Positions 61,271-61,473 of a stretch of 64,000 bases of DNA are shown here, in pieces (position 1 is the stretch's first letter; each line of letters begins with the position of its first letter). The notes below the pieces were generated by a model. That model searched no databases, was not told the DNA's origin, and saw only the letters and a list, made by a program, of their open reading frames with translations. Position numbers and translations under genes: made by a program. Source of the stretch: Camelus ferus (Eukaryota). The DNA is taken from NCBI RefSeq assembly GCF_009834535.1, contig NC_045696.1, positions 83,950,001 to 84,014,000 of the forward strand, in the 5' to 3' direction.

Positions 61271-61327
61271 ATGTTTTGTGCCCTATTCTTTTATCACAAA
61301 AAAGAGAAGAAAGACTGCAGTGAATGA
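61271..61327 (+). other. uORF1 in PDCD10 5'UTR (MFCALFFYHKKEKKDCSE*)
   Basis: ATG at 61271, open for 18 codons to TGA at 61325-61327. Translation is not demonstrated. Confidence 0.55.
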
Positions 61328-61377
61328 AGATTCTTCTGCATTTTAGCACTGCTTTTTCTACTGTAGTTGGCTTTTGA
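61324..61377 (+). other. uORF2 in PDCD10 5'UTR (MKILLHFSTAFSTVVGF*), in frame with and abutting the main ATG
   Basis: ATG at 61324, 17 codons, TGA at 61375-61377, immediately followed by ATG at 61378. Confidence 0.7.
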
Positions 61378-61473
61378 ATGAGGATGACAATGGAAGAGAT
61401 GAAGAATGAAGCTGAGACCACTTCCATGGTTTCTATGCCCCTCTATGCAGTCATGTATCCTGTGTTTAATGAG
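61378..61473 (+). CDS. PDCD10: Programmed cell death 10 (CCM3), first coding exon. The exon spans 61263-61473; the gene continues beyond the window.
   Basis: Encodes [32 protein letters not shown] (32 codons, the PDCD10 N-terminus). Polypyrimidine acceptor ttctttccctttaaccag| at 61262 and donor GAG|gtcagt at 61473/61474. Confidence 0.98.

What the first reader, a model, noticed from the sequence alone, without database searches (positions are those of the whole stretch)
61324..61380. In-frame uORF whose stop directly abuts the PDCD10 start codon (TGA.ATG)
Seen: ATG at 61324 opens MKILLHFSTAFSTVVGF, and its TGA (61375-77) is immediately followed by the PDCD10 ATG (61378) in the same frame with no spacer. 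From memory the human 5'UTR has the same arrangement (MKIPLHFSTAFSTVVGF*M), which would imply conservation. Inference: ribosomes translating this uORF could not use scanning reinitiation at Met1. It may therefore repress CCM3, shift initiation downstream, or support termination-coupled reinitiation. Rare readthrough would add a basic-then-hydrophobic 18-residue leader; TGA-A is not a top readthrough context. PDCD10 dosage matters in cerebral cavernous malformation.
Basis: partly seen in the sequence, partly recalled or inferred. Interest (0 to 1): 0.7.

Follow-up and report, generated by a model that had tools for sequence, protein, structure and literature searches.

The report
Known weak uORF before CCM3
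A short reading frame that ends right at the start of the cavernous-malformation gene PDCD10 is real and already catalogued as translated in humans; it most likely just diverts some ribosomes, while most protein is probably started two codons further on.

Summary
Observation confirmed: ATG 61324, 17 codons, TGA 61375-77, then PDCD10 Met1. Chance gives this in about 2% of such A/T-rich leaders. The human counterpart is already in a Ribo-seq ORF catalogue (c3riboseqorf163), labelled primate-young. Yet this non-primate window, a goat-matching retrocopy and a second retrocopy keep ATG, frame and probably the stop, so it is older. The stop puts T at -3 of Met1: human Met1 scores 38 against 111 for Met3, and 57 of 69 named fish proteins start at Met3. 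Best reading (0.6): an ordinary weak, repressive uORF; CCM3 comes by leaky scanning, mostly from Met3. No support for stop-start coupling or a readthrough signal peptide. Function is untested; I found no paper on it and no earlier scan finding names PDCD10.

The parts
44868..44964 (+). PDCD10 non-coding exon 1 (5' end approximate), in the G+C-rich promoter region; no ATG in 44700-44965; donor after 44964
   Evidence: tblastn of retrocopy P0001 and donor scan; G+C 0.566 in 44001-46000
61263..61473 (+). First coding exon: 115 nt of leader and 32 codons of PDCD10
   Evidence: Acceptor with 0.88 pyrimidine fraction; junction kept in P0001; identity to PDB 3l8i_A
61271..61327 (+). uORF-A, 18 codons, +1 frame, weak start (-3 T); its TGA overlaps the ATG of uORF-B; stop lies 50 nt before Met1 and 56 nt before Met3.
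   Evidence: the human catalogue has only one PDCD10 row, uORF-B
61324..61377 (+). uORF-B (the finding): 17 codons plus TGA, in frame with PDCD10, weak start (-3 T, +4 A)
   Evidence: human counterpart c3riboseqorf163; retrocopies
61365..61366 (+). Acceptor-like AG (pyrimidine fraction 0.76) inside uORF-B; if used, both upstream ATGs would be left out of the mRNA. Use not shown
   Evidence: no transcript evidence
61378..61380 (+). Met1, annotated start, weak context because the stop codon fills -3 to -1
   Evidence: human efficiency score 38, weakest-tenth set
61384..61386 (+). Met3, -3 A; ancestral and probably main start
   Evidence: human score 111; 57 of 69 named fish proteins begin here
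61390..61392 (+). Met5, -3 A and +4 G; back-up in-frame start

Best explanation
An ordinary AUG uORF with a weak start that takes a minority of scanning ribosomes out of play. Shown: three weak AUGs in a row (uORF-A, uORF-B, Met1, each with T at -3), then Met3 (-3 A) and Met5 (-3 A, +4 G). Shown for human by others: the uORF is in a Ribo-seq catalogue, and Met1 scores far below Met3. Inferred: ribosomes that translate uORF-B stop 0-21 nt before Met1-Met8, too close to restart, so they make no full-length CCM3; the rest leak past and start mostly at Met3, some at Met1 and Met5. The main effect of the abutting stop is to weaken Met1. In this species uORF-A may add repression, or may carry ribosomes past uORF-B's start and let some restart 50-70 nt later. 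Expected net effect: a modest cut in CCM3 output (of the order of a quarter to a half in a toy model), growing when start-codon selection is lax.
For: Contexts and distances. Human Met1 38 against Met3 111, in the set of the weakest 10% of starts (PMC7397870 Table S2 row; set defined); that paper's abstract says downstream starts were more productive in all 10 such genes tested with reporters (no mention of PDCD10 among them was seen). Fish: 57 of 69 named proteins start at Met3, 2 of 69 have Met at position 1; tetrapods 30 of 33 have Met1. The one fish DNA locus has no Met1, no in-frame uORF and -3 A at Met3. Catalogued as a translated uORF with 0 mass-spectrometry studies. ATG, length and stop position kept in two retrocopy clusters and one genomic exon. 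Toy leaky-scanning model with assumed scaling: uORF-B 19-29% of ribosomes, Met3 30-43%, Met1 14-21% (illustration only).
Against: No reporter, initiation-profiling or N-terminal proteomics data were seen for PDCD10. Met1 is kept in 30 of 33 named tetrapod proteins, which suggests it is used or lies in a constrained element. Conservation rests on protein-level read-outs from four mammalian sources besides the window, all placental or unnamed; no DNA alignment, so ATG and stop retention could not be compared with leader background (window against retrocopy P0001 cluster: 1-2 of 17 residues differ in the uORF, 3-4 of 19 in the codons before it; too few to tell). A tree-shrew gene model on a decayed copy has Trp in place of the stop (P0004). 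The catalogue labels the ORF young and de novo. Counts are database entries, many being isoform models or decayed copies, not independent species.
Confidence: 0.6

Rival explanations
1. Bystander: the leader is conserved as nucleotides (splicing or RNA-binding signals, or simply a slow region); the uORF is translated a little but has no selected regulatory effect.
For: The arrangement arises in about 2% of shuffles or intronic ATGs. Very weak start context. The codons before the uORF are also well kept in the retrocopy (15-16 of 19 residues). Absent in the fish locus.
Against: ATG, frame and stop position are shared by human, the window and two retrocopy clusters; upstream AUGs are generally selected against (established knowledge, recalled). 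PhyloCSF values in the catalogue row are positive (19.23 primates, 30.53 mammals; the definition was not read).
Confidence: 0.22
2. The 17-residue peptide, or its codons, matter: a sequence-dependent stalling uORF or a microprotein.
For: 17 of 17 residues identical between the human row and the commonest retrocopy form; positive PhyloCSF.
Against: 0 mass-spectrometry studies; substitutions at residues 4, 8 and 13 among the copies seen; a conserved leader would give the same picture.
Confidence: 0.08
3. Termination-coupled reinitiation: ribosomes ending on the TGA restart on Met1 or Met3 at once, as in caliciviruses or influenza B; uORF-A might hand on to uORF-B through the overlapping stop-start.
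For: Two stop-start junctions in series. The viral mechanism uses touching or overlapping stop and start codons (abstract starts of PMC3035654 and PMC2699510, listing).
Against: The only match to the 5-base 18S-pairing core (motif recalled) lies 145 nt before Met1 and 91 nt before the uORF-B ATG, in exon 1, upstream of both uORFs; the usual 40-80 nt range is recalled. No unusual folding (z from -1.46 to +0.73 in 4 of 4 segments). Leaky scanning explains output without it.
Confidence: 0.06
4. Stop readthrough gives a 230-residue CCM3 with an 18-residue targeting leader.
For: Same frame, TGA stop; mean hydropathy 1.3.
Against: The base after the stop is A, not the C-U-A-G context of known mammalian readthrough (recalled). 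Longest hydrophobic run 3 residues, best 11-residue window 1.38. No named protein among the 107 hits carries the whole leader; the carriers are unnamed gene calls that read TGA as Trp. Weak as a negative: only 15 or 16 of the 603 members of the main PDCD10 cluster were listed.
Confidence: 0.04

Closest known systems
c3riboseqorf163, human PDCD10 uORF in the 7,264 Ribo-seq ORF set (PMC10032668, supplement file 2 row seen)
   Same: Same gene, 54 nt, 16 of 17 residues identical
   Different: Labelled 'primatomorpha - young' and de novo there, whereas non-primate copies keep it here; the table gives no function and no second uORF
Weak annotated AUG followed by a strong in-frame AUG (PMC7397870; parts 1-2 of 7 of the text and one Table S2 row seen)
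   Same: PDCD10 is listed: Met1 38, next AUG at +6 in frame, 111
   Different: Does not link the weak context to a uORF stop; the two forms differ by only two residues. PDCD10 was found in 1 of 8 supplement files searched (one more file could not be searched)
Viral termination-reinitiation with a TURBS (influenza B BM2, calicivirus VP2; PMC3035654, PMC4090194, PMC11921876, listings only)
   Same: Stop codon touching the next start
   Different: Upstream ORF is short and weakly started, no core motif near the stop, and the main ORF is reachable by leaky scanning
Dual short uORFs of KSHV ORF35-36 (PMC3561293, listing only) and the ATF4 two-uORF switch (recalled)
   Same: Two uORFs in series, the first able to carry ribosomes past the next start
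   Different: uORF-A is 18 codons with a weak start, uORF-B does not overlap the main ORF, and uORF-A is not shown outside this species

Membership tests
AUG-initiated repressive uORF | AUG and stop inside the spliced 5' leader | tested here: met
   (exon structure from a retrocopy of another species, not from this species' reads)
AUG-initiated repressive uORF | Translated in vivo | not testable with these tools
   Human counterpart listed in a Ribo-seq ORF table; footprints themselves not seen; nothing for this species
AUG-initiated repressive uORF | Removing the uAUG raises main-ORF output | not testable with these tools
   No paper found
AUG-initiated repressive uORF | Start and stop conserved beyond leader background | tested here: inconclusive
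   Kept in human, two retrocopy clusters and one genomic exon; no DNA alignment to set a background
Weak annotated start with strong in-frame downstream start | Start context in the weakest tenth; next AUG in frame and stronger | tested here: met
TURBS-type termination-reinitiation | Stop and restart codons touching or overlapping | tested here: met
TURBS-type termination-reinitiation | 18S rRNA-pairing core about 40-80 nt before the stop-start site, in the translated ORF (range recalled) | tested here: not met
   Nearest core 145 nt before Met1, upstream of both uORFs
Programmed stop-codon readthrough | Leaky stop context or stimulatory structure | tested here: not met
   A follows the TGA; no stable fold downstream, z -0.46 and +0.73
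Signal peptide or membrane anchor | Unbroken hydrophobic core of 7 or more residues (recalled) | tested here: not met
   Longest run 3 residues; no dedicated predictor was run
Conserved-peptide (stalling) uORF | Constraint on amino acids rather than bases | tested here: inconclusive
   Positive PhyloCSF in the table; substitutions at three positions; dN/dS not computed

The most novel reading that the evidence does not exclude
In placental mammals the PDCD10 leader is a selected ladder of weak AUGs (uORF ATG and Met1 each sit directly behind an in-frame TGA) that makes CCM3 dose, and the choice between the Met1, Met3 and Met5 forms, follow start-codon stringency (eIF1, eIF5, BZW). If so, leader variants that strengthen the uAUG or shift the uORF into an overlapping frame would be an unrecognised cause of cavernous malformation in families with no coding mutation, and loss of Met1 alone would be largely tolerated.
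Probability: 0.15. Interest if true: 0.65.

Novelty: already known. Interest (0 to 1): 0.28.

Why it matters
PDCD10 (CCM3) loss of one copy causes familial cerebral cavernous malformation (established knowledge; CCM3 named as a cause in abstracts listed), so anything that sets its translation bears on variant interpretation. If the reading holds: Met1 start-loss variants should not be called null without testing, since Met3 is the stronger and older start; leader variants around the uORF deserve screening; and the uORF is a possible handle for raising CCM3. It also shows that the 'primate-young, de novo' label on this catalogued ORF is probably too young. The mechanism itself is of a common kind.

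Tried and rejected
No whole genome is held for this window. Sequencing runs: no RNA holder listed; no read-level data were obtained, so expression, acceptor choice (61262 or 61366) and other leader exons in this species stay open. Metagenome scan: 495 candidate stretches, 1 confirmed, a fish exon; no mammalian DNA for an alignment. Literature: PDCD10 with 'upstream open reading frame' or 'uORF' gave the same 2 general papers (listings only); the ORF id gave 0; searches for Met1 variants and alternative initiation of CCM3 listed 14 and 13 papers, none on this by title or abstract start (bodies not read, except passages of PMC5064884, which concern the promoter). PMC9943669 (uORFs of OMIM genes): 0 hits for PDCD10 in the 1 supplement file held. 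Most subscription papers are not in the library. Rejected: special RNA structure, TURBS, signal peptide. The 42-nt inverted repeat touching the start (71% complementary) was taken as chance and not tested. The earlier-findings search returned only prokaryotic and viral notes. No structure or complex prediction was run.

Full report
Observation. The window reads ATG at 61324, 17 sense codons, TGA at 61375-77 and ATG at 61378 in one frame. The 32 codons from 61378 to a donor after 61473 equal residues 1-32 of human PDCD10; no later PDCD10 exon is in the window. The window is not human (residue 4 of the uORF differs) and probably not primate: no family of long short-interspersed repeats was found in 64 kb.

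Gene structure. A search with the uORF read through into the coding exon returned 107 proteins. The only one covering the whole query, P0001, is an unnamed gene call on what looks like a processed retrocopy: it aligns to window 44868-44964, continues at 61263, and runs on into the next coding exon without an intron. It has Trp at three places where the window has TGA, so it was evidently called with TGA read as Trp. This gives a leader of about 212 nt, with no ATG in exon 1, and places the uORF in the mRNA, at least in that lineage. An acceptor-like AG at 61366 would remove both upstream ATGs; its use is not shown.

A second uORF opens at 61271 (18 codons, +1 frame) and its TGA overlaps the ATG at 61324. 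An in-frame TGA also sits directly before 61324, so the uORF ATG and Met1 have the same immediate context. uORF-A, uORF-B and Met1 all have T at -3; Met3 has A at -3; Met5 has A at -3 and G at +4.

Chance. A stop before the start with an in-frame ATG open to it arose in 1.6% of 20,000 shuffles and in 7 of 301 intronic ATGs; two or more upstream ATGs arose in 56% of shuffles. The arrangement is uncommon but would be expected in many genes of a genome.

Conservation. The human uORF is row c3riboseqorf163 of the Ribo-seq ORF table in PMC10032668 (supplement rows only seen): 54 nt, 'primatomorpha - young', de novo, 0 mass-spectrometry studies, PhyloCSF 19.23 and 30.53; it is the only PDCD10 row. 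Of 169 proteins held, 12 carry the uORF peptide followed by Trp and Met1; they stand for three loci: the P0001 cluster (9 of 9 members), a second retrocopy cluster (2 of 9 members) and one unspliced exon (P0130, code unknown). In the second cluster other members begin at Met1 with the same downstream sequence, as expected if the Trp is a TGA, and the first 70 residues from Met1 of P0164 equal a named goat protein, P0026 (compared by eye). So the uORF is shared by primates and even-toed ungulates and is older than the label says. Against: a tree-shrew model on a decayed copy has Trp at the stop under the standard code (P0004), and there are no data for marsupials, birds or amphibians. The one fish locus has neither the in-frame uORF nor Met1; it matches the window at 77 of 96 coding bases but only 31 of 52 aligned uORF bases.

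Which start is used. PMC7397870 lists human PDCD10 in its weakest tenth of start contexts: Met1 38, next AUG at +6 in frame 111. Among named proteins that I sorted by organism name, 57 of 69 fish entries start at Met3 and 2 have Met at position 1, while 30 of 33 tetrapod entries have Met1 (unnamed entries left out; entries are not independent). Where fish sequence before Met3 is visible, position 2 is Arg in 5 of 6 entries lacking Met1, in keeping with a kept purine at -3. Met3 is therefore the ancestral start and Met1 a weak tetrapod addition. Closely spaced AUGs compete (PMC9743702 and PMC4770231, listings only), which would favour Met3 further.

Mechanism. Ribosomes that finish uORF-B are 0, 6, 12 and 21 nt from Met1, Met3, Met5 and Met8; the first AUGs at 48 nt or more are Met17, Met20, an out-of-frame AUG and Met26. 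Reinitiation in mammals is best at about 78 nt (abstract start of PMC6614817), so these ribosomes should yield no full-length CCM3. Those that finish uORF-A are 50-71 nt from Met1-Met8 and have passed the uORF-B start, so some may restart. A toy model that scales the two published scores and assumes the same score for the uAUGs gives 70-72% of ribosomes to the main ORF with uORF-B alone and 50-54% with both, Met3 taking about twice the share of Met1. This is illustration, not measurement. Shown: anatomy, contexts, distances, presence in other mammals. Taken from papers: translation in human, context scores. Inferred: repression, its size, main use of Met3.

Rivals. Coupled stop-start needs an 18S-pairing element near the stop; the only core match is 145 nt upstream and outside both uORFs, and no segment folds better than shuffles. 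Readthrough lacks a leaky context and its leader lacks a hydrophobic core. A bystander or a peptide-level function cannot be excluded without a DNA alignment.

Novelty and verdict. The ORF is catalogued and belongs to the commonest kind of leader element; the weak Met1 and strong Met3 are tabulated too. I found no paper that tests or discusses it (open-licence library only, and several supplements were not seen). New here are the link between the stop and the weak Met1, the evidence that the ORF predates primates, and the overlapping second uORF. Interest 0.28; the stringency-sensor reading has probability about 0.15.

Noticed in passing
window 61271-61327 (+): Second uORF of 18 codons whose stop overlaps the ATG of the reported uORF; not in the human catalogue; the retrocopy residues at that place (Tyr-Val, as in the window) allow but do not prove its ATG.
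   Followed up: partly
window 61321-61323 (+): An in-frame TGA also sits directly before the uORF's own ATG, so the stop-then-ATG pattern occurs twice, 54 nt apart; 9 of 9 members of the P0001 cluster have Trp there.
   Followed up: partly
window 61365-61366 and 61345-61346 (+): Acceptor-like AGs inside the uORF (pyrimidine fractions 0.76 and 0.65); use of either would give an mRNA without upstream ATGs. The tree-shrew gene model P0004 appears to enter at the first of these.
   Followed up: no
window 44001-46000: G+C-rich island holding PDCD10 exon 1; by the passages of PMC5064884 this should be the bidirectional promoter shared with SERPINI1, which would run leftward on the minus strand. No SERPINI1 exon was looked for by homology.
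   Followed up: no
window 45108: A second donor-like site 144 nt after the exon 1 donor; if used, the longer first exon would include further ATGs.
   Followed up: no
window 8799-8960, 12642-12850, 33239-33425, 36999-37051: Repeated A-rich-tailed pieces that look like LINE-1 3' ends of even-toed ungulates (recalled, not tested).
   Followed up: no
window 61377-61418 and 62729-62770: 42-nt inverted repeat, 71% complementary, between the start-codon region and the next intron; probably chance.
   Followed up: no
L001 970-981: The fish pdcd10 exon has its own 3-codon out-of-frame uORF with a weak start about 70 nt before Met3.
   Followed up: no
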